Assembly (NCBI RefSeq): GCF_022846255.1
Contig: NZ_AP025682.1
Reading direction: 5' to 3' (one strand)
Length of the DNA stretch: 64,000 nucleotides
Source of the DNA: Escherichia coli
GTDB taxonomy: Bacteria; Pseudomonadota; Gammaproteobacteria; Enterobacterales; Enterobacteriaceae
The translations under genes and the position numbers were made by a program. Numbering within the stretch: the stretch's first letter is position 1; each line of letters opens with the position of its first letter. The notes under the pieces are model-generated. The model was not told the DNA's origin, did no database searches, and worked only from the letters and a program-made list of their open reading frames with translations. Below, in pieces: positions 1 to 16,664 of this stretch.

Positions 1-1650
1 CTGACGGTCACCGTAACGGACTGTGGTGGAAATCCGGTTGCCAATGCCCCCTTTAGCATCAGACGTGGCGATGCTATAAATCGTCAAGGAACGGTGAATT
101 CAGCCAATCCGGTTTCACTGGATTCAACGGTTTTAACCAATACCTCGACGGAATATAAAGGAACAACTGGAGAAGACGGCACGGTGAATATTGCTGTAAC
201 CCAGAAGTCTGGTGAAGGGGTGAAAACTCCATTGTATATCAGTACGACCGGGATGGTTCAGCCGATCCAGCAGGATGTTATTTTCACCGTTGTAACCAGT
301 CCGGACAGTACGCTCGCCAATATGTGGGGCCATATGCCAGAAACCCTGACTGCGGCCAATGGGACTGTATTTGCTCGCCCCAAACTTTCTGCTGAAGCTA
401 ATGGCGGTGGTGGTACACAATCTGAGACTAACGAAGTATGGGCGATATTTAACCATAAGAAAGCAATTGCATCAGGAGCGAATGCGGTTGGTTGCGGTGG
501 GATGGAATACGTTCCCAGCGAGGAAAATTTGCACTCACTCTATAGTGCATTTTCTTCGGGAAACATCAAAATCACCCAGGGATGGCCGGTTTCTGTAATC
601 TATAAGTCCTCGACACCCGACAAATATGTAACAACAGCTCGTAATTACAATGCGGTTAACCTGAGCACCAACAGTGTGAAAGGTCAGCAAACATCCAATT
701 CAGTACACTATTTAGTGTGTCAAAAAGAGGCTGCTCCTGTCATAAAATCAATAGCCATCAGCACTCAAGATTCTCAGTATGTGTCGGTAGTAGGGTTCAA
801 TGACGCCAGAGATAATGGGGGTAGAGTGAAAACTTTTGATGCCCTGAAATTAAAAACATGGGGTAAGGGCAGTGGTTCGATGACGGTTAAAGTGACGGGG
901 AGCGATAATAAGCCATTAAAAAATGGTCCGTTTATGCTGCTACACGCTCCTGGGTTTGATCGCCAGGGCGGTATACACGCAAATCATACCGACACGGTTC
1001 AGTTTAAAGATAGTCATAGCAGTAGTACGAATAGGAATATGGGGGCTATGGACGTTTATTATGGGACAACAAATGATAGCGGTGAGCTGACGTTTTCATT
1101 AAGCCAGCCGCAGGATGGAACTGGACTAGCCGTGATCATGAGTGCCCGAGATGACGATTATGTTCATAATATACTCAGTAATGATTTCCCTGTTATTTTT
1201 GCGACAGAGACGAGCCCGGATACGAAAGAAGCGAAGTATTGGGGGTATATGTCTGAAACACAAGTACTTGGTGGCAGAGTATTTAATCGTCCTAAATTGG
1301 TGAGTGAGTTACCGGTGTCTGGGGATAGTATTAGTCCTGGAGGCGCTGATGCTGAGGTTTGGGCAGGGATTTCCGGGGATGATTCTCTTGCGGGTATTAA
1401 CGGTGGCTGTGCAGCAGATAAACGACCAACAGTAGCGGAGTTAAATGATTTGCGGTCTGTATATAATACGAGTCACCAATACGGCTACTTTATGAAAGGG
1501 GGATGGCCTGCAATCGGTAAAGATACTGGGCAGAATGAATACTGGACAGATGTTGCCGAGGCGCGTTTTGGATACATGGAGATGTATTCAGGAGATGTAC
1601 ATTACATTGCGGGTGGCCTAAACACGGCAATGCAGATCTGTGCGCAGTAA
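1..1650 (+). CDS. 3' end of a giant Ig-like repeat protein (Rat-family-like); the reading frame is open from window position 1, so the gene starts upstream of the window
   Basis: Frame 1 is open from nt 1 to the stop at 1648-1650 (ORF track lists only from the first Met at 94). The translation has two Big_1-like segments and two copies of the FTV.TSPD..WG(H/Y)M..RPKL motif that recurs nine times in the 2693-aa protein downstream. Confidence 0.75.
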   Translation: MTVTVTDCGGNPVANAPFSIRRGDAINRQGTVNSANPVSLDSTVLTNTSTEYKGTTGEDGTVNIAVTQKSGEGVKTPLYISTTGMVQPIQQDVIFTVVTSPDSTLANMWGHMPETLTAANGTVFARPKLSAEANGGGGTQSETNEVWAIFNHKKAIASGANAVGCGGMEYVPSEENLHSLYSAFSSGNIKITQGWPVSVIYKSSTPDKYVTTARNYNAVNLSTNSVKGQQTSNSVHYLVCQKEAAPVIKSIAISTQDSQYVSVVGFNDARDNGGRVKTFDALKLKTWGKGSGSMTVKVTGSDNKPLKNGPFMLLHAPGFDRQGGIHANHTDTVQFKDSHSSSTNRNMGAMDVYYGTTNDSGELTFSLSQPQDGTGLAVIMSARDDDYVHNILSNDFPVIFATETSPDTKEAKYWGYMSETQVLGGRVFNRPKLVSELPVSGDSISPGGADAEVWAGISGDDSLAGINGGCAADKRPTVAELNDLRSVYNTSHQYGYFMKGGWPAIGKDTGQNEYWTDVAEARFGYMEMYSGDVHYIAGGLNTAMQICAQ

Positions 1651-1776: not shown

Positions 1777-2001
1777 ATGGAAGTGCAGTGTCCGGTTTGT
1801 CATCAATCTATTGAATTACATGGCGGTAGTGCGCATTGTGAATATTGCCAACAGGATATCGCGTTTCAGGCGCTTTGCCCGGATTGTCATCAACCCTTAC
1901 AGGTGCTAAAAGCGTGCGGTGCGGTGGACTATTTTTGCCAGAACGGTCACGGATTAATTTCTAAAAAGCGTATTGAATTTTTGCCGTTTAATATCATTTG
2001 A
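1777..2001 (+). CDS. yfgJ: Small zinc-ribbon protein, YfgJ-like (74 aa)
   Basis: AGGAG 7 nt upstream of the ATG. Four CxxC pairs (CPVC, CEYC, CPDC, plus C47/C54), typical of a double zinc ribbon. Sits where yfgJ lies next to xseA in K-12; identification from memory. Confidence 0.55.
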   Translation: MEVQCPVCHQSIELHGGSAHCEYCQQDIAFQALCPDCHQPLQVLKACGAVDYFCQNGHGLISKKRIEFLPFNII

Positions 2002-2059
2002 ATATATTGTTTTATCATTTATATATTCCATGTGAATGGTAAAACAATTTCTTACTGAC

Positions 2060-2110
2060 CGCACTATTAATATAATTGAGTATGAACAATCATGTATAAT
2101 GTTTAAGAAT
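2060..2110 (+). promoter_or_regulatory. Candidate sigma70 promoter region for sinH in an AT-rich intergenic stretch
   Basis: TATAAT hexamers at 2071-2076 and 2095-2100, the second preceded by TG; no well-spaced -35 found. AT-rich spacer 2002-2200 upstream of the sinH start. Confidence 0.25.
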
Positions 2111-2200
2111 ATATTTAGCCTTTTCTGTCGTGCTATCCCGGATGTTCTGGAATAGAATGGCAGAATTCATTTTTGACTTTATTGTCAATAGGGAAAAGGT

Positions 2201-4375
2201 ATGCTGCGATGGACACGCTGTATTATGCTAACATTTATCTCTGGGGCTGCTTTTGCGGCTCCAGAGATAAATGTTGAGCATAAAGAATCATTACCTGATT
2301 TAGGTAGTCAGGCCGCACAACAAGAAGAACAAACCAACAAGGGGAAATCGCTAAAAGAGCGTGGTGCCGATTACGTCATTAACTCCGCCACGCAAGGGTT
2401 TGAAAACTTGGCCCCTGAGGCGCTGGAATCTCAGGCCAGAAGCTATCTGCAAAGTCAAATCACCTCAACCGCACAATCTTATATTGAAGACACACTCTCT
2501 CCCTACGGTAAGGTCCGTTCGAACCTCTCCATTGGTCAGGGCGGCGATCTGGATGGCAGTTCCATCGATTATTTTGTTCCCTGGTACGATAATCAAACCA
2601 CTGTTTATTTCAGCCAATTTTCTGCACAACGAAAAGAAGATCGTACGATCGGGAATATTGGGCTTGGTGTAAGACATAATTTTGATAAATGGTTGTTGGG
2701 TGGAAATATATTTTATGATTATGATTTTACCCGTGGGCATCGCCGTTTAGGTTTAGGTGCCGAAGCGTGGACTGATTATTTAAAATTCTCTGGCAACTAT
2801 TATCACCCGCTTTCTGACTGGAAAGACTCCGAAGATTTCGATTTTTATGAGGAGCGTCCTGCGCGCGGCTGGGATATTCGCGCCGAAGCCTGGCTTCCCG
2901 CTTATCCGCAGCTTGGTGGTAAAATTGTTTTCGAACAGTATTACGGTAATGAAGTCGCGCTTTTTGGCACTGATAATCTGGAGAAAGATCCCTACGCGGT
3001 AACGCTTGGACTGAATTATCAACCAGTGCCGTTACTGACAGTTGGGACGGACTATAAAGCGGGGACCGGAGATAACAGTGATGTCAGCATTAATGCCACT
3101 CTTAATTATCAGTTTGGCGTTCCGCTAAAAGATCAATTGGATAGCGATAAAGTGAAAGCGGCGCACTCGCTGATGGGCAGCCGTCTTGATTTCGTTGAGC
3201 GTAATAACTTTATTGTTCTGGAATACAAAGAAAAAGATCCGCTTGATGTCACCCTGTGGTTGAAAGCGGATGCCACCAACGAGCACCCTGAGTGCGTCAT
3301 TAAGGACACTCCCGAAGAAGCCGTCGGTCTGGAAAAATGTAAGTGGACCATTAACGCACTCATTAATCATCACTACAAAATCGTTGCGGCCTCCTGGCAG
3401 GCGAAAAACAATGCTGCCCGCACGCTGGTGATGCCGGTTATCAAAGAGAATACTCTGACAGAGGGTAACAATAACCACCGGAACCTGGTGCTGCCTGCCT
3501 GGCAGTACAGTTCCGATCAAGCCGAACAAGAAAAACTCAATACCTGGCGGGTTCGTCTGGCGCTGGAAGATGAAAAAGGCAATCGGCAGAGCTCCGGTGT
3601 GGTGGAAATCACCGTTCAACAGGACCGTAAAATTGAGCTCATCGTTAACAACATCGCCAATGTACCGGATAAGAGCAATCACAGCCACGAAGCCAGCGCA
3701 CAGGCCGATGGTGTAGATGGTGTAGTGATGGATCTCGATATTACTGATAGCTTTGGCGACAACACTGACCGCAACGGTAATGTCTTGCCGCAGGATAATC
3801 TCAACCCGCAGTTGTTTGATGCCAACGATAAAAAAGTGACGCTGACGAATAACCCCTGCACTACCGAGACTCCCTGTGTCTTTATCGCCAAACAAGATAA
3901 AGAAAAGGGGACCGTTACGCTCTCCAGTACGTTGCCTGGCACCTTCCGTTGGAAGGCGAAAGCTGCTCCCTATGATGACAGTAACTATGTTGACGTAACG
4001 TTCCTGGGTTCTGACATCGGCGGGCTGAATGCCTTTATCTATCGTGTTGGTGCGGCTAAGCCCGTGAATCTTATCGGCAATAAAGAACCGTTGCCTCTCA
4101 ATAGCAGCTATCGCTTTGTGTTGTGGCGTGACGCTAACAAAGACGGCGTGTTCCAGCTATCAGAGAAACTCACTGAAGAGGAGATGAAACAGTATGACTA
4201 TCAGTGGGAATTCACGGGACATAGCGTGAATGGCAATACCGGTGCGCAAGCCAATACCACTAACGTCGATATAGAGATCCCGGCAACGAACAAGGAAGCG
4301 GCAGCGAAGTTTAGTGCCCAGGTAACCGATGGCGTGCAGGGATACGGTTTGCAGGTCAATTACAGCAAGAAATAG
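2201..4375 (+). CDS. sinH: Inverse autotransporter adhesin of the intimin/invasin family (SinH-like), 724 aa
   Basis: N-terminal signal peptide (…FISGAAFA/APE). Residues ~110-330 show intimin/invasin beta-barrel-type sequence (DYFVPWYD, LGLGAEAWTDYLKFSGNYYHPLSDW, GWDIRAEAWLP, LGLNYQP), followed by an Ig-like passenger. RBS GGAAAAGG upstream. Confidence 0.85.
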   Translation: MLRWTRCIMLTFISGAAFAAPEINVEHKESLPDLGSQAAQQEEQTNKGKSLKERGADYVINSATQGFENLAPEALESQARSYLQSQITSTAQSYIEDTLSPYGKVRSNLSIGQGGDLDGSSIDYFVPWYDNQTTVYFSQFSAQRKEDRTIGNIGLGVRHNFDKWLLGGNIFYDYDFTRGHRRLGLGAEAWTDYLKFSGNYYHPLSDWKDSEDFDFYEERPARGWDIRAEAWLPAYPQLGGKIVFEQYYGNEVALFGTDNLEKDPYAVTLGLNYQPVPLLTVGTDYKAGTGDNSDVSINATLNYQFGVPLKDQLDSDKVKAAHSLMGSRLDFVERNNFIVLEYKEKDPLDVTLWLKADATNEHPECVIKDTPEEAVGLEKCKWTINALINHHYKIVAASWQAKNNAARTLVMPVIKENTLTEGNNNHRNLVLPAWQYSSDQAEQEKLNTWRVRLALEDEKGNRQSSGVVEITVQQDRKIELIVNNIANVPDKSNHSHEASAQADGVDGVVMDLDITDSFGDNTDRNGNVLPQDNLNPQLFDANDKKVTLTNNPCTTETPCVFIAKQDKEKGTVTLSSTLPGTFRWKAKAAPYDDSNYVDVTFLGSDIGGLNAFIYRVGAAKPVNLIGNKEPLPLNSSYRFVLWRDANKDGVFQLSEKLTEEEMKQYDYQWEFTGHSVNGNTGAQANTTNVDIEIPATNKEAAAKFSAQVTDGVQGYGLQVNYSKK

Positions 4376-4430
4376 GATCAGCGCCATGGCTGATCGGGCC
4401 ACCGCTGAATGTTAACCAAGGAGAGTGTTT

Positions 4431-5423
4431 ATGAAACCTCATATGAAACGTGGCCTGACAAAAGTCGCGCTGGCGCTGATGCTGGCTGGATACTGTGCCG
4501 TGCCAGCCGCTATGGCGGAAGATGCCGCCTGGGTAGACAGTGGGACGACCGCTGAATTCGAAGGGACCATACCCTGGCTTTATCGCGAGGGGGGGAATGC
4601 CACGATTAACTCGGATGATGCGGATCACATCAAAGTAACGTCTGATGGTAAAGGTACTCGTCCTTCAGGTAGCGAGACGGATAAACGCCTTTACTCAGGA
4701 GATACCATCACGTTGGGGTGGGATATCGGCGATACCGAAGGGGATATCGACGATGGTCCAGATGGTATTGATGCGAAAACGACGGCGACTATCAAATGGT
4801 ACAGCTACAGCGATAATGCGGGTGGCGGTAAAACGGAGCTGACCGCAGCGGCGGGTAAGACGAGTTATAAACTCACTGATAACGAACGTGGGCGCTATAT
4901 CGGTGTTGAAATCCAGCCTATCACTCAGACCGGTAATCCCTTCCAGGGAACGTCGCTGACTCTGCTGGATATCTCAACGGCCAGCGGTGGCGGCAGCGAT
5001 ACGGACAATGTTGATCCTGGCCCGGTTGTGAACCAGAACCTGAAAGTCGCCATCTTCGAGAAAGGCACCAGTACCAACCTTATCGGTGGTAATACAGCCA
5101 TTGCGCTTAACAAAACGTATGTGGCCAAACTGTACTCGGATGAAAACCAGAACGATAAGTACGATGCGGGTACGGATGTGGACGTTACCGCTAACTATGA
5201 CTTTGCATGGGTCTTTAACGGTAACAGTAAACAACTTGCTGCGGCGGGTGGTATTGCCAACGCCAGCTTCGATAACAATGACATTGTTATTCCGCAAACT
5301 AACGAACAAGCAAGAGCCAGCCTTAACGGTAGTGACCGTAATGGTAAGACCGGTCTTGCAATCCCGGCAAACGGCGACGGCGTCCAGGGCTATACGCTGT
5401 CTATCATTTACAAACACCACTAA
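4431..5423 (+). CDS. sinI: Secreted protein of unknown function (SinI-like by position), ~330 aa
   Basis: AAGGAG 7 nt upstream of the ATG at 4431 (ORF track starts at the GTG at 4425). Signal peptide (…AVPAAMA/EDAAW). C-terminal DGVQGY motif shared with SinH; N-terminal W…G.T.EF.GT.P motif shared with the giant protein. Symbol assigned from synteny only. Confidence 0.7.
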   Translation: MKPHMKRGLTKVALALMLAGYCAVPAAMAEDAAWVDSGTTAEFEGTIPWLYREGGNATINSDDADHIKVTSDGKGTRPSGSETDKRLYSGDTITLGWDIGDTEGDIDDGPDGIDAKTTATIKWYSYSDNAGGGKTELTAAAGKTSYKLTDNERGRYIGVEIQPITQTGNPFQGTSLTLLDISTASGGGSDTDNVDPGPVVNQNLKVAIFEKGTSTNLIGGNTAIALNKTYVAKLYSDENQNDKYDAGTDVDVTANYDFAWVFNGNSKQLAAAGGIANASFDNNDIVIPQTNEQARASLNGSDRNGKTGLAIPANGDGVQGYTLSIIYKHH

Positions 5424-5431
5424 TGCGCACC

Positions 5432-5462
5432 AACAGCATTCCCGTATGGGAATGCTGTTTTC
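5432..5462 (+). terminator. Intrinsic terminator or attenuator between the sinI-like gene and the giant gene
   Basis: Inverted repeat ACAGCATTCCC / GGGAATGCTGT with loop GTAT, followed by TTTTCC, 9 nt after the stop codon. Confidence 0.45.
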
Positions 5463-5533
5463 CGCCTGTTTTGCTTAGCGACGCGTTAAGCAAAACGGGT
5501 TGACGTTTTGTTTATCATGCTGGAGTTTTCTAC

Positions 5534-8500
5534 ATGTCGGTATGTCTGAAACCAGGAAAAATCATTGTGCTTCTGGGCATGTTGGCAGCCTTTATGCTGT
5601 CTGACTTTGCACGGGCAGGAGTGGAATGGCAGACATATCCTGGTTCTACAGGCGAGTTTAACGGTACAGTTCCTATTGCCGATAGCGCCAGCGTACCCGT
5701 CTATCAGGGAAGCGTTCAGCTTGATCCTGCTGCATCTCATGATGTGGCGTTTTCTGCTAAACCGAATGAATTTAGCGTTGACGATGACGCTGCTAACCTG
5801 ATAGTCGCTAATCCTCAGGACAGTGAAGGCGACCAGTTTTCCACACCACCTGCGCTGCGCTGGGAAAAACAAACGCCGCCGACCGTTAGCCTGGTGTGGG
5901 CCGATGCCGCCACGCCGGATACGCCGCTTAATCCACAGCCTACCGCCAACCGTAGCTTTTGCGCTCAGGGCCTGGCCGGGCGTTCGCTGGTGGCCTGGCC
6001 GCAGATTGATGCGCAGCAGACCATTCCACTGCTTTATCTGCTGACTTCGACCGGTTATCCCTATGAGGGGACGGTGGCGCTGGCTGACCAGAAAGTGACG
6101 CTGAACATCGCGCCCGCGCAGGGCGATTTAATCTCGGTGAGCGCCAGTGGTTATAACGAAACGATCGCGGCGGCGAAAACCACCGTTGGTGACACCATCA
6201 CGCTAACTGTTACCACCAAAGACTGTCAGGGCAACGTTGCGGGCAATATTCCTTTTATTATCAAACGACAGGATGCGAAAAACCGCCAGGATGCGGTGAA
6301 TAACACCGCACCGGTGGTGCTGGATAGCACCGAGTTAACGACGACCGCGACCGAGTATCACGGCACATCGGATGCCAACGGTACGGCAACCATCACGGTG
6401 ACCCAACCTAATGGGCCCGGCGTCAAAACGCCGCTGGTGGTCAGCATCTCCGGCATTGCGCAAACCAGTGAGACGGCGGTTATTTTTACCGTACTCACCA
6501 GCCCGGACGTGGCGCAGGCCACGATGTGGGGCCATATGGCGGAAACGGTTGAGGCTCATGGCTACACGTTCAGCAGGCCAAAACTGGCGGCAGAAGTCAG
6601 CAATGAAAATGCCACGGTCGTCGATCACAACGAAACCTGGTCAACTTTCACCTGGAGCGGGGCAGACAGCCATTGCACCGTGCTGCCGGGCATGCGCCAT
6701 TTCGGCGCACTGGCGACCGTTATTCCCACCACGGTACAGACTGTCCTCGGCTGGCCGATGCAGGATGATTATTACTGGACATCGCTGGCGGGCACTACCG
6801 GGCAGCACCATGCGGCGGATGTCTCTAACCGTGCTGAAGCGCAAAAGCCGGATAGCACCACGTTTCTTGTAAGCTGCGTGGACAAACCCGCGCCTGACGT
6901 CGAACCGAAAATCGTCCTTACGCCAGAAAACTATGATGATACGGCACAGGCGATGAAAGCGAAGGTGGGTGAGGACGCCACGATGCGTCTGACGATCACC
7001 GACAATAAAAACAACGATCAACCGCTGGCGTATTACTACTTCTCGCTGCATCTGGATGACGGCGTTAACCGCAAAAATCAAACCGATCCTGCCTGGGAAG
7101 CTCATCCGGTACAGATTGCTGGCGGCAGTAATTTTCGCCAGGTCGACGCACATACCTATGAGGGCATGACTGATGTCAACGGTCAGGCTTCGCTAACCCT
7201 GAGCCAGCCTGGTGGCGCGGGCGTTAAAACTCACATTACGGCGAAAATGCGCAGCGATTTTAACGCCACGGATGCCAAAGATGTGATTTTTACCGTAATC
7301 ACCAGCCCGGACAGCGACAAAGCGCGGATGTGGGGCCATATGCGCGGCATTATTGAGTCCGGCAGTCTGTATAAACGCCCGTTGCTGGCGGATGAAACCG
7401 AGCATGAACTGGGAACAGTGCGGGAAAACAACGAAGACTGGGCGTTGTACGATCAAAACACCAGTATGCAGGCGGAATGCGGGGTGGGTCATATACCGCG
7501 CCAGAGCTCACTGGAAAGCCTGTTTTCAGCCCATCCCGGTAACGCGATTGGCACTGAGTATGGCTGGCCCACCGCACAACAGAGCTACCTAAGCGCGGTG
7601 GAGCAAGAAACGCATTCATCGGTGAATCTGGGGAACGGGAGCGTCGACAGCTATTCCGGCTTTAAGCAGAATTACCTCTCCTGTTCGGGTAATGAGATGG
7701 TAGCGAATGTTGAAGTCAGCACCGATCATGATGTGTCTGTTGGCACCCAAGCGCAAGCCAAAGTGGGTGACACCATCGTAATGACCGTGCGTACGATTAA
7801 CTCGCTAAATAATTCCCCGGTACCCTTTAGCGCATTCACCATTACCAAAGGTATGGGATATAACCGAGCGGGACAGGTGAGCGGGTTTGATGACCCGAGT
7901 AGCGGCGCAATCACGATGGATAACTCGCAATATGGTACATCACAGCCATCGATGGTTTATGCGGGAACAACCGATGTCCGGGGCGTGGCGACGGTCGAGA
8001 TTAAACAACCGCAGGGCGTCGGGCTAAGAACGGCGCTGAGCGTAACGCCGGTAAATTCCTACCTGCCGAATACCGTTAACTACAGCGTTATTTTTACCAC
8101 CCCAACCAGCCCGGATGTTTCCGGCGCGCAGATGTGGGGCCATATGGATGAAACGATTACCGTTGATTCATCAACCTTTAGCCGGCCTAAGCTGGCGGCG
8201 GAAATCGCCAGCCCGGACGGAACCCTGACCGAAAATAACGAAATCTGGGCGCGCGTGAGCCAGGCCAATACGTCCAGTACCAGCAAAGGCGGCTGCGGCA
8301 CCAATATGCTGCCGCGTCGCTCCCAGCTAAGCGCGTTGTATAGCGCCAACAGTGGTAACGCGGTGCAAACGACGCACGGCTGGCCAACGCAACGTCAGCC
8401 CTACTGGAGCAGCTCACCGGCGGATGTGACACCGCACTTTTTCACGATAGCGCTGAACGATGGCGCGCAGGCCATCGGCGGCAATACGCCGGTTTACGTC

Positions 8501-11500
8501 AGTTGCCTGACGACGGCGAACAAGCCTGCCAGCAGCATTACGCTGGAGGTGGTTGATAAAGCGCAATGGAATGCGGGGAATAACGCGGCAAAGCTGAAAA
8601 AAGGTGAGACACTACAGGTTAAAGTGACAGTAAAAGACTCGCAGGGTAACGCGTTAGCGGATATGCCATTTACCCTCAGTCGCGGTGATGGCTATACCCG
8701 TAGCGGCGAAAAACATATTGCCGGTAGCGGCGATGCGCTGGTAGCGCCCGTGGTGGTCAATGGCGGGTTGGCAGATGAAACAACGTTGAATGACACTGCA
8801 ACGGTGTATACCGCCATGACCGGCAGCGACGGCAGCAAAATCCTTAATATTACCCGCCCGGATACCCACGGCACCAAAACGGCGCTGACGGCAACGCTTT
8901 ACTCCGATGCGACGAAAAAAGACAGCCTGGACACGATCTTTACGGTGGTTACCAGCCCGGATAGCAGCCAGGCGAAAATGTGGGGGCATATGCCGGAAAC
9001 GGTGACGGCTGAGGACGGTACGGTCTTTAAACGCCCGCGGTTACTGAAGGAACTGAGCAGTCAGACTGGGCGAACATCAACGCTTGAAGACAACGAAAAC
9101 TGGGCGTTGTTTAACATTAATTATGCGAGCTCTTCCACGACGTATAGTGGCTGTGGAACCAACTATATTCCAACTCAGGCTGGTCTGACGTCACTGTTTG
9201 CTAATAATGCGGGCAACACCATGAAAACCGTGCAGGGCTGGCCGGTGGCAACGCGCTATTTGTCCAACACGTCCGACAATGGCAGCATGGAGCAGCGTAA
9301 CTACAAGGCGGTCGATCTCAGCAATGGCACGAGTGCGGCAGTGTCATCAACGGCGCTGCAACTGCTGACCTGTCAGACTACACCGGTAACCACGGTGAGC
9401 CAAATCCTGCTGGAAGCGGCAGATCCGGCGACGCTGGATACCACCTATAACGTGGTAAAAGCGAAAAAAGGCGAAGAATCCGTGGTGCGCGTCACCACCA
9501 AAGATGCACAAGGCAACCTGGTGGGCAATACGGCATTTATCCTGACGCGTGCCAACAGCGTGAGTCGGGCTAATGCATCAGCGACGATGAGCGTGGGCTC
9601 GTTGACGGTGACGGATGCCTGGGGCAATACGCGAAATAATTTCCAGTCGACAAGTGAAACCATTTACGGCGTGACCGGTGCTGATGGGGCAACGACATTG
9701 ACCCTGAAACAGGATAACAGTACCGGGTTAAGAACCGATCTCACGGCAAAACTGGATACGTCCAGCAGCGTCAAGGCAACGCTACCGGTGGTCTTTACCG
9801 TCGTGACCAGCCCGGATTCGCCAAAAGCGAATTTTTGGGGACATATGGCCGAAACGGTGGCGGCCTCCGATGGCTCGGTTTATAAGCGACCATTGCTGTT
9901 TGGCGAACTGACCAACAACTATGCGCGATATAGCACGCTTGAGAACGGAGAAAGCTGGGCAAGATTCACCTCGACTCAGTCGATTGACACCAGCATGAAT
10001 GGGTGTGGTACAGATTATATGCCGACGCTGGATGGTCTGAAGTCTTTGTATGACGCCAATAGCGGTAATGCGATGAATACGGTGCAGGGATGGCCGGTAA
10101 ATACGAGTTATCTCACCAACACCCCGAGTGATACACAAGCAGGGAGCCGTTACTACAATGTGGTGCAACTGAATTCTGGCGCGGTTTCGCAAATCGTATC
10201 CACAGTGCTGGCGTTACAAACCTGCCGCACGACGCCGTTGACGACTGCCAGCCAGATTACGCTGGAAGCCGCGGATCCTGCGCAGTTTGTCAGCATTGAT
10301 AGTACGCTTAGCGCTGTCAAAGCGAAGAAGGGCGATGAGGTGTCGATCCGCATTTCGACTAAAGATGCGCAGGGGAATTTAGTCGGCAATACGCCGTTTG
10401 CCCTGAAACACGCGAACTCGATCAATCGTCAAAATGTGACGTCATCGCAGAAAGTGTCGGTCACGACTGCAGCGGGTACGACGGTGGATACCAGTGCAGC
10501 GACCATCCTGTATGGCGTAACCGGGCCAGACGGAACGACGACGATGGCGCTCCGACAGGATGCGTCCACCGGACTACGAACCGACTTTTATGCCTTGTTG
10601 AACGATACCGGCGTGTCGTCGGGCACCTTGCCGGTGATCTTTACCGTTATCACCAGCCCGGACACGCCGCTGGCGGCCAACTGGGGCCATATGGCGGAAA
10701 CCTTTACCAGCAGCGAAGGCGTTACCTTCAAGCGGCCTTTCCTCAAAGCTGAACTTTCCGGCGGTACGGCGAAAACGGTCAATAATGAAGTCTGGTCGCT
10801 CCTGACATCGACTGAGAAAGCGGACGCCAGCAAGGCCGGGTGTGATGAGGCGTATCAACCGCAGACGACAGACATGCAGGGGCTGTATGCCGATTATCCT
10901 AACGGCCAACTGGCAACGGTGCTCGGCTTGCCGACTGCCGCCGGGAACTGGTGGGATTATGACATGATGGCGGCAGTGAGCAATAGCTGGAGTTACCAGG
11001 TGTTTTCGCCGGGTAATGGCCAAACGATTCAGGCATCGTCCGGCTATACGGCGGTAGTGATGTGTCTGGTAAAACCACATACGGAAGCGGCCACAATAGA
11101 GATTACCTCGACGGCGCAGGACGCAGCAAAATCGGCCAGTAATGGTGGACGACCGAGCGCCGTAGCGAAGAAAGGTGAGACGATTCCGTTGACGGTGACC
11201 GTGCGTGATAGCGCCGGGAACCCGATGCCATATGCCGACTTTACCCTCTCGCGTGAAACGACGCTGGATCGCTCGAAAACAGCTGTTAACAGTGCGGTGG
11301 ACGATCTTACCGTAACGGCATTGGTACCGGCGAACAGGGATAGCGTGTTGACAGCGAGCGGAGCAAAAACTCTCGCAACGACGGGCAGCGATGGCACTGC
11401 CACCTTTGAGGTGGGGCAGTACTCTACGACCGGGCTGGCGACGCCGTTAACCGTGACGCTGGCGCGTGATACGACGAAAGCTGCCACGCTGGATGTTATC

Positions 11501-13615
11501 TACACGGTGATCACCAGCCCGGATTCGCCGAGTGCGAAATTCTGGGGGCATATGCCAGACACCTTTACCAGCTCGGCGGGCGTCACCTTCAAACGGCCGT
11601 TGCTGAAAGCCGAAGCGACGTCAGGCTCATCAATTAGCACTAACGGTAACGGTGAAGTGTGGGCGTATATGAGCAACTTGCAAAATTTAACATCGACAGA
11701 TTGCCCGCTGGAGTATCAGCCGCGCAGCAACGAGCTGTTGGATTTATATAGCGATCACCCGAACGGCGCGATAATGACTGACCTGGGGCTACCGATATAT
11801 GCAGGCAAGTGGTGGGCTTATGATATGGTCATGCCGGATTTATATACGTGGCAGTATCAGACTGTCAGCCTGAGCACCGGAGATATCGCGAAGAGCTCGT
11901 CAACCAACGCGCTGATGCTTTGCCTGACGAAGCCGCATCCGGCAGGCGTCAGCGTAATGTTGACGTCATCCGCAATGGATAACGCCAGAAGCCTCAGTAA
12001 TGGCGGGCGACCTAGCGCGTCAGTGAAAAAAGGCAACCCACTGCCAATTGTAGTGACGGTCAAAGATCGTGATGACAACCCGCTGGCGGGAGAGGCCGTG
12101 ACGCTCAGGCGTGGTTCAGCGATGAGCCGTTCAGGAGCAGTAGTGGGCACGCCGGCAAATGCAATGACGTTGACAGAGTTGACACCCGTGTCGGCGGAGT
12201 TTTCTCTGGCCGCACACGATACGCAATGGCAAGGTTTCACCGGCAGTGATGGTACGGTCACTTTCAATGTTGAACAGCCTGAGACCATCGGCCTGGCCAT
12301 CCCGTTCACCGCTATACTGGCGCGAGATGTGGCAACCACAACTGTCCTTGATGCGATCTTTACCGTCGTCACCAGCCCGGATTCCACAATGGCGACCTAC
12401 TGGGGTCATATGCCGGATACGGTCACGGCGGAAAACGGCGTGGTCTTTGAACGGCCTAAATTGTTGAAAGAGTTGCCGTCGAGCACCGGAATTAGTCAGG
12501 TGACGGATAACAATGAAGTCTGGCCGCTGTTTAAGGCAACGCAAAGGGAAGATAGCAGCCTCAGTCCTTGTGAAGCGGCGCGTCGGCCATTGAGCGATGA
12601 TTTAGAATCGCTCTACGCGCGCTATCCGGGGAACACGCTGACGACACAAATCGGTTGGTCTACGCGGTATACATGGTGGGCGCTGGATAACTGGCAGGGG
12701 AATGCCCAGGTTGTTAGTCTGAGTGATGGCTTAAAGTGGTCGACGGTGAATACCGCGTATCAAGGGTGTCTGGTTAACCCGCGCGCGACGGTCTCCAGCG
12801 TCACGCTGACATCAACGGCGCTGGATGACGCCACACAGGCGGCGACGGTGAAAAAAGGCGACGCCGCGCCCATTGTCGTTACCGTAAAAGACAGCGCCGG
12901 GAAGCCGGTGCCAAATATCGCTTTTACCCTAAAACGCGGTGAGGCCGTGCCACGTAACAGCGGGGCGACGCTGTATGGCGATGTGGATGCGATGGACGAT
13001 TTGGCCGTGCAACCTTCATCCGGTGCGGCAGTCACGTTGGCTGACAGCGGAAATACCATCGACGGAGTCACGGGAGCGGACGGTACGGCAAGCTTTACCG
13101 TTCGTCAGGATAATACGCCAGGATATAAAACGCCGTTGACGGTGACGCTAACGGATAACGCCACCATAACGGCGACGCTGGACACGATTTTCACCGTGCC
13201 GACCAGCCCGAATGTCGCCACGGCGTATTTCTGGGGTCATATGGCGGATACCGCCACGGTAAGTGGCAAGACGCTGCATCGCCCGCTATTAAAATCGGAG
13301 TTGCCGTCAGGCGCTACCGCAGCAGCAACGCCTGATGTAAATAATGAAACCTGGGCGCTGGCGCATGTTATGGATTCCTCTAAATGGGATGTCGCGCAGC
13401 AGTGCGGCAGTATGAATAACGTGCCGAGCAGTGCCGAATTACAAACATTACACTCCGGCTTTAGCACATTGGGATGGCCGTCCTCGATAAGCTTCCCGTA
13501 TTTATCTACTGATAAGGCTGGGTCGTTCTATTGTGGTGTTGATGAAGGCTCTGGCAGTCTCAACTGTGGCATTCAGCCTGCGAAAACGCCGGGGTTTGCA
13601 ACCTGTTTCCAATAA
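5534..13615 (+). CDS. ratA: Giant secreted Ig-like repeat protein (RatA-like), 2693 aa
   Basis: GGAG 6 nt upstream of the ATG. N-terminal signal peptide (…[11 protein letters not shown]), no lipobox Cys. Nine tandem ~280-aa modules, each with a Big_1-like segment, an (I/V)FTV.TSPD…WGHM…RP.L motif and a Cys-pair segment. No beta-barrel-like region recognised. Confidence 0.85.
6170..13500 (+). repeat. In-frame tandem array of nine coding modules inside the giant gene (period ~800-860 nt)
   Basis: The TSPD/WGHM motif recurs at about nt 6500, 7300, 8110, 8950, 9810, 10650, 11515, 12370 and 13205. DNA copies are diverged, with pairs 4/5 and 6/7 most alike. Confidence 0.75.
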
Positions 13616-13645
13616 CCTTATCCACCTTGTCAATATGAGGTTCTG

Positions 13646-15197
<1,552 letters not shown>

Positions 15198-16664
15198 ATG
15201 CTACGTATCGCTAAAGAAGCTCTGACGTTTGACGACGTTCTCCTCGTTCCTGCTCATTCTACCGTTCTGCCGAATACTGCTGACCTCAGCACCCAGCTGA
15301 CGAAAACTATTCGTCTGAATATCCCTATGCTTTCCGCAGCAATGGATACCGTAACGGAAGCGCGCCTGGCTATTGCTCTGGCTCAGGAAGGCGGTATCGG
15401 CTTTATCCACAAAAACATGTCCATTGAACGCCAGGCAGAAGAAGTTCGCCGTGTGAAAAAACACGAATCTGGCGTGGTAACCGATCCGCAGACCGTACTG
15501 CCAACCACGACGCTGCGTGAAGTGAAAGAACTGACCGAGCGTAACGGCTTTGCTGGCTACCCGGTTGTTACCGAAGAAAACGAACTGGTCGGCATTATCA
15601 CCGGTCGTGACGTGCGTTTTGTGACCGACTTGAGCCAGCCGGTTAGCGTTTACATGACGCCGAAAGAGCGTCTGGTAACCGTGCGTGAAGGCGAAGCCCG
15701 TGAAGTGGTGCTGGCAAAAATGCACGAAAAACGCGTTGAAAAAGCGCTGGTGGTTGATGATGAATTCCACCTGATCGGCATGATCACTGTGAAGGATTTC
15801 CAGAAAGCGGAACGTAAACCGAACGCGTGTAAAGACGAACAAGGCCGTCTGCGTGTAGGTGCAGCGGTTGGCGCGGGCGCTGGTAACGAAGAGCGTGTTG
15901 ATGCGCTGGTTGCCGCAGGCGTTGACGTTCTGCTGATCGACTCCTCTCACGGTCACTCTGAAGGTGTTCTGCAGCGTATCCGTGAAACTCGCGCTAAATA
16001 TCCTGACCTGCAAATCATCGGCGGCAACGTGGCAACTGCTGCAGGTGCCCGCGCGCTGGCAGAAGCCGGTTGCAGTGCCGTTAAAGTGGGTATCGGCCCT
16101 GGTTCTATCTGTACGACGCGTATCGTGACTGGTGTCGGTGTTCCGCAGATCACCGCCGTTGCTGATGCAGTAGAAGCCCTGGAAGGTACCGGCATTCCGG
16201 TTATCGCTGACGGCGGTATCCGTTTCTCAGGCGATATCGCTAAAGCTATCGCCGCTGGCGCAAGCGCGGTGATGGTAGGTTCCATGCTGGCAGGTACTGA
16301 AGAATCTCCGGGTGAAATCGAACTCTACCAGGGCCGTTCTTACAAATCTTACCGTGGTATGGGTTCCCTGGGCGCGATGTCCAAAGGTTCTTCTGACCGT
16401 TACTTCCAGAGCGACAACGCTGCCGACAAACTGGTGCCAGAAGGTATCGAAGGCCGCGTAGCCTATAAAGGTCGCCTGAAAGAGATCATTCACCAGCAGA
16501 TGGGCGGCCTGCGCTCCTGTATGGGCCTGACCGGCTGTGGTACTATCGACGAACTGCGTACTAAAGCGGAGTTTGTACGTATCAGCGGTGCGGGCATTCA
16601 GGAAAGCCACGTTCACGACGTGACCATTACTAAAGAGTCCCCGAACTACCGTCTGGGCTCCTGA
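15198..16664 (+). CDS. guaB: IMP dehydrogenase
   Basis: Translation from the ATG at 15198 ([16 protein letters not shown]…) gives the 488-aa GuaB; the ORF-track start at 15129 is an upstream in-frame Met. Confidence 0.95.

What the first reader, a model, noticed from the sequence alone, without database searches (positions are those of the whole stretch)
5534..13615. Giant protein has a Sec signal peptide but no recognisable membrane anchor or dedicated secretion partner
The N-terminus looks like a cleavable signal peptide without a lipobox Cys. I see no beta-barrel-like region (unlike the neighbouring 724-aa inverse autotransporter), no C-terminal type I secretion-type repeat, and no usher, TpsB or T1SS genes in the locus. 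How a ~280-kDa Ig-repeat protein reaches or stays on the surface is unexplained. One hypothesis is that it depends on the co-located inverse autotransporter and/or the 330-aa secreted protein.
Basis: inference. Interest (0 to 1): 0.55.

Follow-up and report, generated by a model that had tools for sequence, protein, structure and literature searches.

The report
RatA-like adhesin beside SinH transporter
The giant gene is the known E. coli RatA-like adhesin of the sinH-sinI-ratA cluster, and although it has no membrane anchor of its own, it is always encoded just after the SinH outer-membrane transporter and shares a start-of-protein motif with SinI, so export or tethering through SinH is its most likely, still untested, route to the cell surface.

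Summary
ORF 5534-13615 encodes a 2693-aa protein (282 kDa mature). It has a cleavable signal peptide (ARA|G after residue 28) and no lipobox. It has no second hydrophobic segment, no RTX motif and no barrel family. No usher, TpsB or T1SS gene lies nearby.

It is a known protein: NCBIfam equivalog "RatA-like protein", in the E. coli sinH-sinI-ratA ("ila") cluster, which is related to the Salmonella CS54 island. After the signal peptide comes a conserved 190-aa N-module. Nine [BIg21 + InvE_AD] units then tile the protein to its last residue.

It remains untested.

Evidence added here:
- The order inverse autotransporter, SinI-like gene, N-module gene recurs wherever upstream DNA was available, including an unrelated genomic context with a different 413-aa cargo.
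- SinI and all Rat proteins begin their mature chains with one shared motif, (LKxG)xW-x6-T-x4-G-T-x-P. An HMM built from SinI alone finds only Rat N-termini.
- SinI is a chimera: Rat-type N-terminus plus SinH-type C-terminal domain.

Verdict: a known gene and a known open question. The shared motif makes the question directly testable.

The parts
5534..13615 (+). RatA-like giant adhesin gene (2693 aa plus stop)
   Evidence: ORF list and translation. NCBIfam NF011844 'RatA-like protein' equivalog: 5430.9 bits against a cutoff of 3870, covering residues 3-2693.
5534..5617 (+). Sec signal peptide, residues 1-28, predicted cleavage ARA|G; no lipobox
   Evidence: Hydropathy and motif checks. Homologues show the same layout.
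5618..5677 (+). Mature N-terminal motif [20 protein letters not shown] (family pattern (LKxG)xW-x6-T-x4-G-T-x-P), shared with SinI
   Evidence: An HMM built from the SinI N-terminus alone finds Rat N-termini and nothing else. Per-locus table. hhalign probability 90%, E 1.7e-6, against E 0.055 for the reversed control. Joint alignment A5.
5618..6187 (+). Conserved Rat N-module (residues 29-218), with no Pfam or PDB match; candidate SinH-recognition or tether module
   Evidence: Conservation in alignments A1 and A2. Only 53 representatives in 1.84 billion proteins; every match that includes the start of the module begins at residues 15-41, i.e. just after the signal peptide. No PDB relative. AlphaFold model poor.
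6188..13606 (+). Nine tandem [BIg21 Ig-like + InvE_AD lectin-like adhesion domain] units, residues 219-2691, each adhesion domain with a Cys pair
   Evidence: Pfam scans. One unit matches PDB 5n40_A 'Putative invasin' at E 1.9e-32. Cys positions.
2201..4375 (+). sinH, intimin-like inverse autotransporter (724 aa); proposed translocator or anchor
   Evidence: NF033423 inverse_SinH equivalog, 1474 bits. Homologues carry PF11924 IAT_beta.
4025..4363 (+). SinH C-terminal domain (residues 609-721), homologous to the SinI C-terminal domain
   Evidence: BLASTP 30% identity, E 7e-10. hhalign probability 99.65%, E 4.5e-25.
4431..5423 (+). sinI, SinI-family autotransporter-associated protein (330 aa, signal peptide 1-29)
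   Evidence: NF040711, 370.7 bits. AlphaFold model pLDDT 89.4 with two beta-sandwich domains. No Pfam family.
4518..4577 (+). SinI mature N-terminal motif EDAAWVDSGTTAEFEGTIPW, the counterpart of the RatA motif
5040..5411 (+). SinI C-terminal domain (residues 204-327), SinH-like
5432..5502 (+). Two strong RNA hairpins in the sinI-ratA spacer: a 12-bp stem followed by UUUU, then a 17-bp stem. Possible attenuator between sinHI and ratA.
   Evidence: RNA fold -46.3 kcal/mol, z -6.19. Not flagged by the terminator scan, because the tail has only 4 T.

Best explanation
The gene encodes the E. coli RatA-like adhesin. In effect it is a barrel-less inverse-autotransporter "passenger": nine Ig-like plus lectin-like adhesion units.

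Proposed route:
1. It crosses the inner membrane through Sec, and the signal peptide is removed after Ala28 (shown only by sequence features).
2. Its crossing of the outer membrane and/or its retention on the surface depends on SinH, the inverse autotransporter encoded two genes upstream, as in the ZirT/ZirS two-partner system (inferred).
3. The element that links it to SinH is the conserved N-module, which starts at the first mature residue with the motif (LKxG)xW-x6-T-x4-G-T-x-P. SinI carries the same motif (inferred from conservation).
4. SinI combines this Rat-type N-terminus with a copy of the SinH C-terminal domain. It is therefore either a second cargo of the same route or an adaptor between SinH and RatA (inferred).
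5. The N-terminus stays proximal to the cell and the lectin-like C-terminal units point outwards, as in intimin and invasin (inferred).
For: Identity:
- Full-length equivalog match to RatA-like protein.
- The locus matches annotated sinH / SinI-family / adhesion-domain genes in at least 747 complete E. coli genomes.

Passenger-like build:
- Nine [BIg21 + InvE_AD] units.
- One unit matches the solved 'putative invasin' 5n40 at E 1.9e-32.

Gene linkage:
- In every locus with upstream DNA, the N-module gene follows sinH then sinI. This holds for 14 loci from Escherichia, Citrobacter, Pseudocitrobacter, Superficieibacter, Leminorella and an unclassified Enterobacteriaceae genome.
- A metagenomic contig shows IAT_beta, then a split SinI-like gene, then a Rat gene.
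- A distant 413-aa N-module protein with a different cargo lies in an unrelated neighbourhood, yet is again preceded by IAT_beta (760 aa) and a SinI-like gene (294 aa).

N-module placement: every match that includes the start of the module begins at residues 15-41, directly after the signal peptide.

Shared motif:
- An HMM of the SinI mature N-terminal 29 residues was searched against 5960 six-frame ORF segments. After the SinI proteins it hit only Rat-like giants, at their mature N-termini (E 2e-6 to 1e-2), with no unrelated hit below E 0.65.
- Profile-profile comparison gives probability 90%, E 1.7e-6. Controls give E 0.055 (reversed), and 0.24 and 0.51 against SinH.
- Salmonella RatA, RatB and SinI carry the motif too.
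- Within loci the motif variant co-varies: the 'EF' type occurs in both SinI and Rat of the window, L001, L003 and L005, and the 'TI/AI + LKxG' type in both elsewhere.

SinI chimera: the SinI C-domain is homologous to the SinH C-domain (probability 99.65%).

Precedent:
- ZirS secretion strictly requires ZirT, and this was reconstituted in E. coli K-12 (PMC2270342).
- The hypothesis for Rat-like proteins is published (PMC4943183).
Against: - No experiment on RatA localisation or SinH dependence was found in the searchable library. Shea et al. 2022 (PMC8853676) was not readable.
- Most of the linked loci are orthologous (next to xseA), so they are not independent observations. Only two or three contexts are independent.
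- The window's own RatA N-terminus did not reach E 10 with the SinI-derived HMM. The near-identical L001 and L002 copies score E about 0.55. For this allele the similarity rests on the pairwise match (E 0.031) and on the family profiles.
- No sequence similarity was found between the RatA N-module and any part of SinH.
- A 282-kDa cargo whose lectin domains contain Cys pairs would have to pass a 12-stranded-type barrel that SinH's own linker should already occupy. Heinz et al. call this problem unresolved.
- The strong hairpins between sinI and ratA suggest that ratA need not be co-expressed stoichiometrically with sinHI.
- ZirS and ZirU could not be checked for the motif.
Confidence: 0.6

Rival explanations
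1. Surface docking only. RatA crosses the outer membrane by some other route. It is then held on the cell by its N-terminal motif or module binding the Ig-like C-terminal domain that SinH and SinI share. SinI acts as an extender, giving a SinH-SinI-RatA chain.
For: - SinI has both the Rat-type N-terminus and the SinH-type C-domain.
- This would explain why a barrel already occupied by SinH's own linker need not conduct a 282-kDa protein.
- The N-terminal segment of SinI is modelled with moderately high confidence (pLDDT 78-91).
Against: - No alternative export system is encoded nearby.
- In the ZirTS precedent, the inverse autotransporter is required for secretion itself.
Confidence: 0.15
2. 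SinH-independent release. RatA is a Sec-exported protein released by a general pathway (type II secretion, outer-membrane vesicles or lysis). It acts as a soluble or loosely bound lectin-like factor, and the linkage to sinH-sinI reflects a shared function, not shared export.
For: - No sequence similarity to SinH was found.
- Strong hairpins separate ratA from sinI.
- A Salmonella Infantis IncFIB record carries ratA-ratB-shdA without sinH or sinI behind an IS26.
Against: - The gene order is conserved even in an unrelated context with a different cargo.
- An N-terminal motif shared specifically with SinI is unexpected for a T2SS substrate.
- The IS26 record looks like a captured chromosomal fragment, not a functional unit.
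Confidence: 0.12
3. RatA is not surface-exposed at all. It is either periplasmic or a poorly expressed, silenced island gene with no dedicated export.
For: - No anchor or barrel was found.
- No localisation data were found in the searched literature.
Against: - Nine invasin-type adhesion units make sense only outside the cell.
- The 8-kb ORF is kept intact across many genomes.
- Literature summaries report that deleting ila cluster genes attenuates UPEC in murine UTI (PMC12928451).
Confidence: 0.08

Closest known systems
RatA-like protein of the E. coli ila cluster (sinH-sinI-ratA), and RatA/RatB of the Salmonella CS54 island
   Same: - Full-length NCBIfam equivalog match.
- Same BIg21/InvE_AD (formerly DUF824/DUF823) repeat build.
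- Same position after sinH-sinI and beside xseA.
- Same N-terminal motif as Salmonella RatA and RatB.
   Different: - This allele is about 93% identical in DNA to the copies in other complete E. coli genomes, while the flanking genome is 99.4% identical.
- It is longer (2693 aa) than Salmonella RatA (NF011843 profile 1860 positions) and RatB (NF011842 profile 2435 positions).
- The window also holds the end of a second, divergent Rat-like gene upstream of yfgJ that was not found in other E. coli genomes.
ZirT/ZirS/ZirU of Salmonella (inverse-autotransporter-dependent two-partner secretion)
   Same: - An inverse autotransporter gene is followed by genes for Sec-exported, barrel-less, Ig-fold proteins.
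- The first partner (SinI, like ZirS) resembles the C-terminal passenger domain of the transporter.
   Different: - ZirS is 276 aa and is released into the medium; RatA is 2693 aa and built like an adhesin.
- Dependence on the transporter is shown for ZirS and not for RatA.
- Whether ZirS and ZirU carry the N-terminal motif could not be tested.
Intimin, invasin and Yersinia invasin-family inverse autotransporters (type Ve)
   Same: - Ig-like domains capped by a disulfide-containing lectin-like adhesion domain.
- One RatA unit matches the solved 'putative invasin' 5n40 at E 1.9e-32.
   Different: - RatA has no IAT_beta barrel, no LysM or periplasmic region and no linker in the same polypeptide.
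- The Ig + lectin pair is repeated nine times instead of occurring once at the tip.
Classical two-partner secretion (TpsA/TpsB, e.g. FHA/FhaC)
   Same: - A very large Sec-dependent exoprotein with a conserved module at its mature N-terminus.
- It is encoded next to an outer-membrane barrel protein.
   Different: - No TPS domain family was found in the first 1200 residues.
- The partner is a 12-strand-type inverse-autotransporter barrel, not an Omp85/POTRA protein.
- The gene order includes the small SinI protein.

Membership tests
RatA-like protein (NCBIfam NF011844, equivalog) | Full-length HMM match above the curated cutoff | tested here: met
   5430.9 bits against a cutoff of 3870; residues 3-2693 against profile positions 1-2683.
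RatA-like protein (NCBIfam NF011844, equivalog) | Repeated BIg21 (DUF824) and InvE_AD (DUF823) domains | tested here: met
   Nine units from residue 219 to 2691.
RatA-like protein (NCBIfam NF011844, equivalog) | Position in the sinH-sinI-rat island beside xseA | tested here: met
Inverse autotransporter (type Ve) | N-terminal IAT_beta barrel in the same polypeptide | tested here: not met
   No barrel family in the Pfam scans. The SinH barrel query hits only sinH.
Inverse autotransporter (type Ve) | C-terminal passenger of Ig-like domains ending in a lectin-like adhesion domain | tested here: met
   BIg21 + InvE_AD units; 5n40 'putative invasin' at E 1.9e-32. The last unit ends at residue 2691 of 2693.
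ZirTS-like substrate of an inverse autotransporter | Sec signal peptide and no barrel | tested here: met
ZirTS-like substrate of an inverse autotransporter | Encoded downstream of, and on the same strand as, an inverse autotransporter gene | tested here: met
   Window, 14 genome loci and two independent contexts.
ZirTS-like substrate of an inverse autotransporter | Sequence similarity of the substrate to the transporter's Ig-like passenger | tested here: not met
   The RatA N-module shows no significant match to SinH. The feature is met for SinI.
ZirTS-like substrate of an inverse autotransporter | Secretion strictly dependent on the transporter | not testable with these tools
   Needs fractionation or surface labelling in sinH deletion and wild-type strains. 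No such data were found in the searched literature.
Classical TPS exoprotein (TpsA) | N-terminal TPS domain (NPNL/NPNGI motifs) and an adjacent Omp85-type TpsB | tested here: not met
   No such Pfam family in residues 1-1200. No TpsB among the neighbours.
Type I secreted giant adhesin (RTX, SiiE or BapA type) | C-terminal secretion signal or RTX GGxGxD repeats, and an adjacent ABC/MFP/OMP gene set | tested here: not met
   No GGxGxD motif. The C-terminus is a complete InvE_AD domain. No T1SS genes nearby.
Lipoprotein | Lipobox with Cys at position +1 | tested here: not met
   No lipobox in the first 45 residues; cleavage context is ARA|G.

The most novel reading that the evidence does not exclude
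The motif (LKxG)xW-x6-T-x4-G-T-x-P at the first mature residues, with its ~170-190-aa module, may be a dedicated targeting or docking signal. It would define a family of inverse-autotransporter-dependent partner proteins (SinI, RatA, RatB, and short Ig/lectin cargos such as P0199), playing the role the TPS domain plays in type Vb secretion.

SinI carries both the signal and a copy of the SinH tip domain. It would then act as an adaptor, letting SinH display a 282-kDa lectin array that it does not encode itself.
Probability: 0.3. Interest if true: 0.7.

Novelty: already known. Interest (0 to 1): 0.4.

Why it matters
sinH is common in extraintestinal pathogenic E. coli, and SinH is being developed as a vaccine antigen (PMC9937491, PMC12525524). 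If SinH also exports or carries the far larger RatA lectin array, then SinH-directed antibodies, sinH mutant phenotypes and adhesion assays all need to be read with RatA and SinI in mind.

More generally, how an inverse-autotransporter barrel could serve a separate polypeptide is an unresolved point raised by the ZirTS work. The N-terminal motif shared by SinI and every Rat protein gives a concrete, mutable element with which to test it.

Tried and rejected
- **AlphaFold model of the Rat N-module** (12-sequence alignment): pLDDT 41.7, so no usable fold, and its structure could not be compared with SinI.
- **PDB sequence search with the N-module profile:** no hit.
- **Foldseek of the confident SinI model against PDB:** only generic FnIII/Ig tandems with E above 0.01, and no ZirS/ZirU-like entry. 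AFDB50 returned SinI-family and SinH-family proteins but nothing that identifies a mechanism.
- **Last homologue search with the 46-aa joint motif alignment:** only 6 short fragments, uninformative.
- **Profile of the N-module against 1.84 billion representatives:** did not retrieve SinI at E <= 1e-3. The SinI-Rat relationship is therefore limited to the motif plus weak collinear matches (DTEGD, TxTGxP). It rests on profile-profile and motif-HMM tests.
- **Co-variation of SinH barrel identity with motif type:** considered and rejected. Overall identities do not track the motif type, and there are too few independent lineages.
- **ZirS and ZirU sequences:** could not be obtained, so the motif was not tested in the only experimentally proven substrates.
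- **Shea et al. 2022 (PMC8853676), the main experimental paper on the ila locus:** not held.
- **Lipoprotein, T1SS/RTX, sortase-type, TPS and chaperone-usher readings:** rejected on sequence and neighbourhood.
- **bamB and yfgM a few genes upstream in E. coli:** core genes, treated as coincidental.


Full report
**What is there**

ORF 5534..13615 (+) encodes 2693 aa. NCBIfam places it full-length in the equivalog "RatA-like protein": NF011844, 5430.9 bits against a cutoff of 3870. The two upstream genes are sinH (724 aa, intimin-like inverse autotransporter, NF033423) and a SinI-family autotransporter-associated protein (330 aa, NF040711). Downstream is xseA on the opposite strand.

The rest of the window is 99.3-99.4% identical to E. 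coli chromosomes. The same der-yfgJ-sinH-sinI-"adhesion domain-containing protein"-xseA-guaB layout is annotated in E. coli SMS-3-5 and A36. At least 747 of 5426 complete E. coli genomes hold most of the region.

The literature calls this the ila cluster (sinH, sinI, ratA) and relates it to the Salmonella CS54 island (PMC12928451; PMC12525524).

**Check of the observation**

- **Signal peptide.** The N-terminus [32 protein letters not shown] is a standard signal peptide with an A-x-A site after residue 28. There is no lipobox, and it is the only hydrophobic segment in the protein.
- **Other export motifs.** There are no GGxGxD or LPxTG motifs. The mature mass is 282 kDa.
- **Domain tiling.** Pfam scans tile residues 219-2691 with nine [BIg21 + InvE_AD "adhesion domain"] units. 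No barrel, anchor or secretion family appears.
- **Barrel search.** The SinH barrel used as a tblastn query hits only sinH.
- **Unassigned region.** Residues 29-218 are proline-rich, with 18 Pro in 190 residues.
- **Neighbours.** No usher, TpsB or T1SS genes are present.

The description is therefore confirmed. One caveat remains: the AlphaFold model of the N-module was too poor (pLDDT 41.7) to exclude a small fold of any kind by structure.

**What the parts look like**

One repeat unit matches the solved "putative invasin" 5n40 at E 1.9e-32. Each adhesion domain carries a Cys pair. This resembles the Ig + lectin tip of intimin and invasin (established knowledge of those families). RatA is thus built like an inverse-autotransporter passenger, repeated nine times, without a barrel.

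The N-module is strongly conserved (alignments A1 and A2). It has no PDB relative. It is rare: 53 representatives among 1.84 billion proteins. Every match that includes the start of the module begins at residues 15-41, directly after the signal peptide.

**Linkage to SinH and SinI**

A scan of one genome per species with the N-module returned 17 loci.

- **Genome loci.** In every locus with enough upstream DNA, 14 in all, the order is sinH, sinI, Rat gene. The genera are Escherichia, Citrobacter, Pseudocitrobacter, Superficieibacter and Leminorella, plus an unclassified Enterobacteriaceae genome. Two short contigs show the ends of sinH and/or sinI in place. Most of these loci sit beside xseA and are orthologous, so they count as few independent observations.
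- **Independent context 1.** A metagenomic contig has IAT_beta, then a SinI-like gene with an in-frame stop, then a 2128-aa Rat gene.
- **Independent context 2.** The distant N-module protein P0199 (413 aa) has an Ig_Eae/Invasin_D4-like C-terminal part instead of Rat repeats. It lies among aromatic-degradation and ABC-transporter genes, yet it is again preceded by an IAT_beta protein (760 aa) and a SinI-like protein (294 aa).
- **Tandem paralogues.** Second Rat genes such as RatB keep their own N-module.

**The shared N-terminal motif**

The mature N-termini of RatA ([20 protein letters not shown]) and SinI (EDAAWVDSGTTAEFEGTIPW) resemble each other at the same position. The pairwise value is E 0.031.

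Across families the resemblance is clearer. The SinI consensus is NLKxGQWQxVSxxTGTIQGTVPWI. The Rat consensus is LKGGxWQELxxSTDAINGTVPxAD.

Three tests support the relationship:

- **Motif HMM.** An HMM built only from the SinI N-terminal 29 residues was searched against 5960 six-frame ORF segments (556,428 residues) from the window and all loci. It found the SinI proteins, and after them only Rat-like giants, each at its mature N-terminus (E 2e-6 to about 1e-2). No unrelated segment scored below E 0.65.
- **Profile-profile comparison.** This gives probability 90% and E 1.7e-6 for the motif. The alignment extends collinearly through DTEGD and TxTGxP. A reversed control gives E 0.055. Either N-module compared with SinH gives E 0.24 and 0.51.
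- **Archetypes.** Salmonella RatA (LLKGGTWQELNSVTGAVNGTAP) and RatB (SSGAWQELTEQTAAINGTPP) carry the motif.

Within loci the variant co-varies. An "EF" form without LKxG occurs in both SinI and Rat of the window, L001, L003 and L005. The "TI/AI" form with LKxG occurs in both proteins elsewhere. This may reflect a single evolutionary event.

One weakness should be stated. The window's own RatA did not reach E 10 with the SinI-derived HMM. The near-identical L001 and L002 copies score E about 0.55.

**SinI is a chimera**

Its C-terminal domain (residues 204-327) is homologous to the SinH C-terminal domain (609-721): BLASTP E 7e-10 and hhalign probability 99.65%. Kingsley 2003 had already noted this, as cited in PMC4943183. 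Its N-terminus is of the Rat type.

The AlphaFold model of mature SinI is confident (pLDDT 89.4, pTM 0.79). It shows two beta-sandwich domains, with the motif in a non-regular N-terminal segment. The model has no significant PDB match. Its AFDB relatives are SinI-like and SinH-like proteins from Enterobacterales and Orbales.

**Comparison with what is known**

- **Gal-Mor et al. 2008.** They showed that ZirS, a Sec-exported protein, is secreted only when the inverse autotransporter ZirT is present, including in E. coli K-12. They noted that no TPS-like recognition domain was known.
- **Heinz et al. 2016.** They extended this to SinH/SinI and explicitly hypothesised that Rat-like proteins are substrates of the inverse autotransporter. 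They also flagged the unsolved problem that the barrel lumen is occupied.
- **Goh et al. 2019.** They found that the E. coli SinH orthologue IatB promotes biofilm without the downstream gene, and left its transport role open.

As far as I could find, the shared N-terminal motif and the chimeric nature of SinI's N-terminus are not described in those papers. Heinz et al. call the Rat N-terminal region "highly divergent".

**Most likely mechanism**

1. Sec export and signal-peptide cleavage (sequence-based).
2. Recognition of the N-terminal motif or module by SinH, followed by SinH-dependent outer-membrane translocation and/or tethering, with the lectin-like units pointing away from the cell (inferred; confidence about 0.6 for SinH dependence).
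3. SinI acts either as a second cargo or as an adaptor (inferred).

Rivals: docking without SinH-mediated export (0.15), SinH-independent release (0.12) and no surface exposure (0.08).

**Verdict**

This is a known gene in a known island, carrying a known and still open question about export. The comparative evidence here strengthens the SinH/SinI link and supplies a specific motif to mutate. It does not establish the mechanism.

Noticed in passing
window 1-1650 (+), with terminator-like hairpin 1685-1712 and a yfgJ-like zinc-ribbon gene at 1777-2001: The window opens inside a second Rat-like gene. Its last 549 codons are present: BIg21/InvE_AD-type repeats, about 30% identical to the RatA repeats. 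It lies upstream of yfgJ and sinH. The region had no megablast match in 5426 complete E. coli genomes, whose der-yfgJ junction lacks it. Its N-terminus, and therefore the motif, is off-window.
   Followed up: partly
window 5432-5502 (sinI-ratA spacer): Two strong hairpins: a 12-bp stem followed by UUUU, then a 17-bp stem. MFE is -46.3 kcal/mol with z -6.19 against shuffles. This may be an attenuator or terminator that uncouples ratA expression from sinH-sinI. Conservation in other loci was not examined.
   Followed up: partly
window 1820-16000 compared with 16001-64000: The sinH-sinI-ratA island is only about 93% identical to the best E. coli matches, while the flanking chromosome is 99.3-99.4% identical. 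The closest N-module copies are in a 'Citrobacter sp.' MAG (98%) and in Pseudocitrobacter vendiensis (93%). This suggests allelic exchange of the island between genera.
   Followed up: partly
window 4518-4577 and 5618-5677; loci L001, L003, L005 against L007-L009 and L014-L016, L018: Within a locus, SinI and Rat carry the same variant of the N-terminal motif. Both have the 'EF' form without LKxG, or both have the 'TI/AI' form with LKxG. This may be co-evolution with a common partner or a single ancestral event.
   Followed up: partly
L009 (E. coli E69, CP089930.1), locus coordinates 5823-7652: The SinH barrel match is split into two pieces about 770 bp apart. This suggests an insertion or disruption of sinH in that strain, while sinI and the Rat gene remain.
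   Followed up: no
L024 2644-3618 (metagenomic contig): The SinI-like gene carries an in-frame stop and is called as two genes of 120 and 140 aa, next to an intact IAT_beta gene and a 2128-aa Rat gene.
   Followed up: no
L026 (Salmonella Infantis CP150497.1, IncFIB 'plasmid' record) 9283-32549: The order is IS26, ratA, ratB, shdA, xseA, guaB, without sinH or sinI. A piece of the chromosomal CS54 island appears to have been captured or assembled next to IS26 on a plasmid record.
   Followed up: no
AFDB50 hits to the SinI model: Several SinI-like proteins from Hafnia, Budvicia, Yersinia, Regiella, Fukatsuia and Zophobihabitans are named 'Ornithine carbamoyltransferase' in UniProt. This looks like a propagated misannotation.
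   Followed up: no
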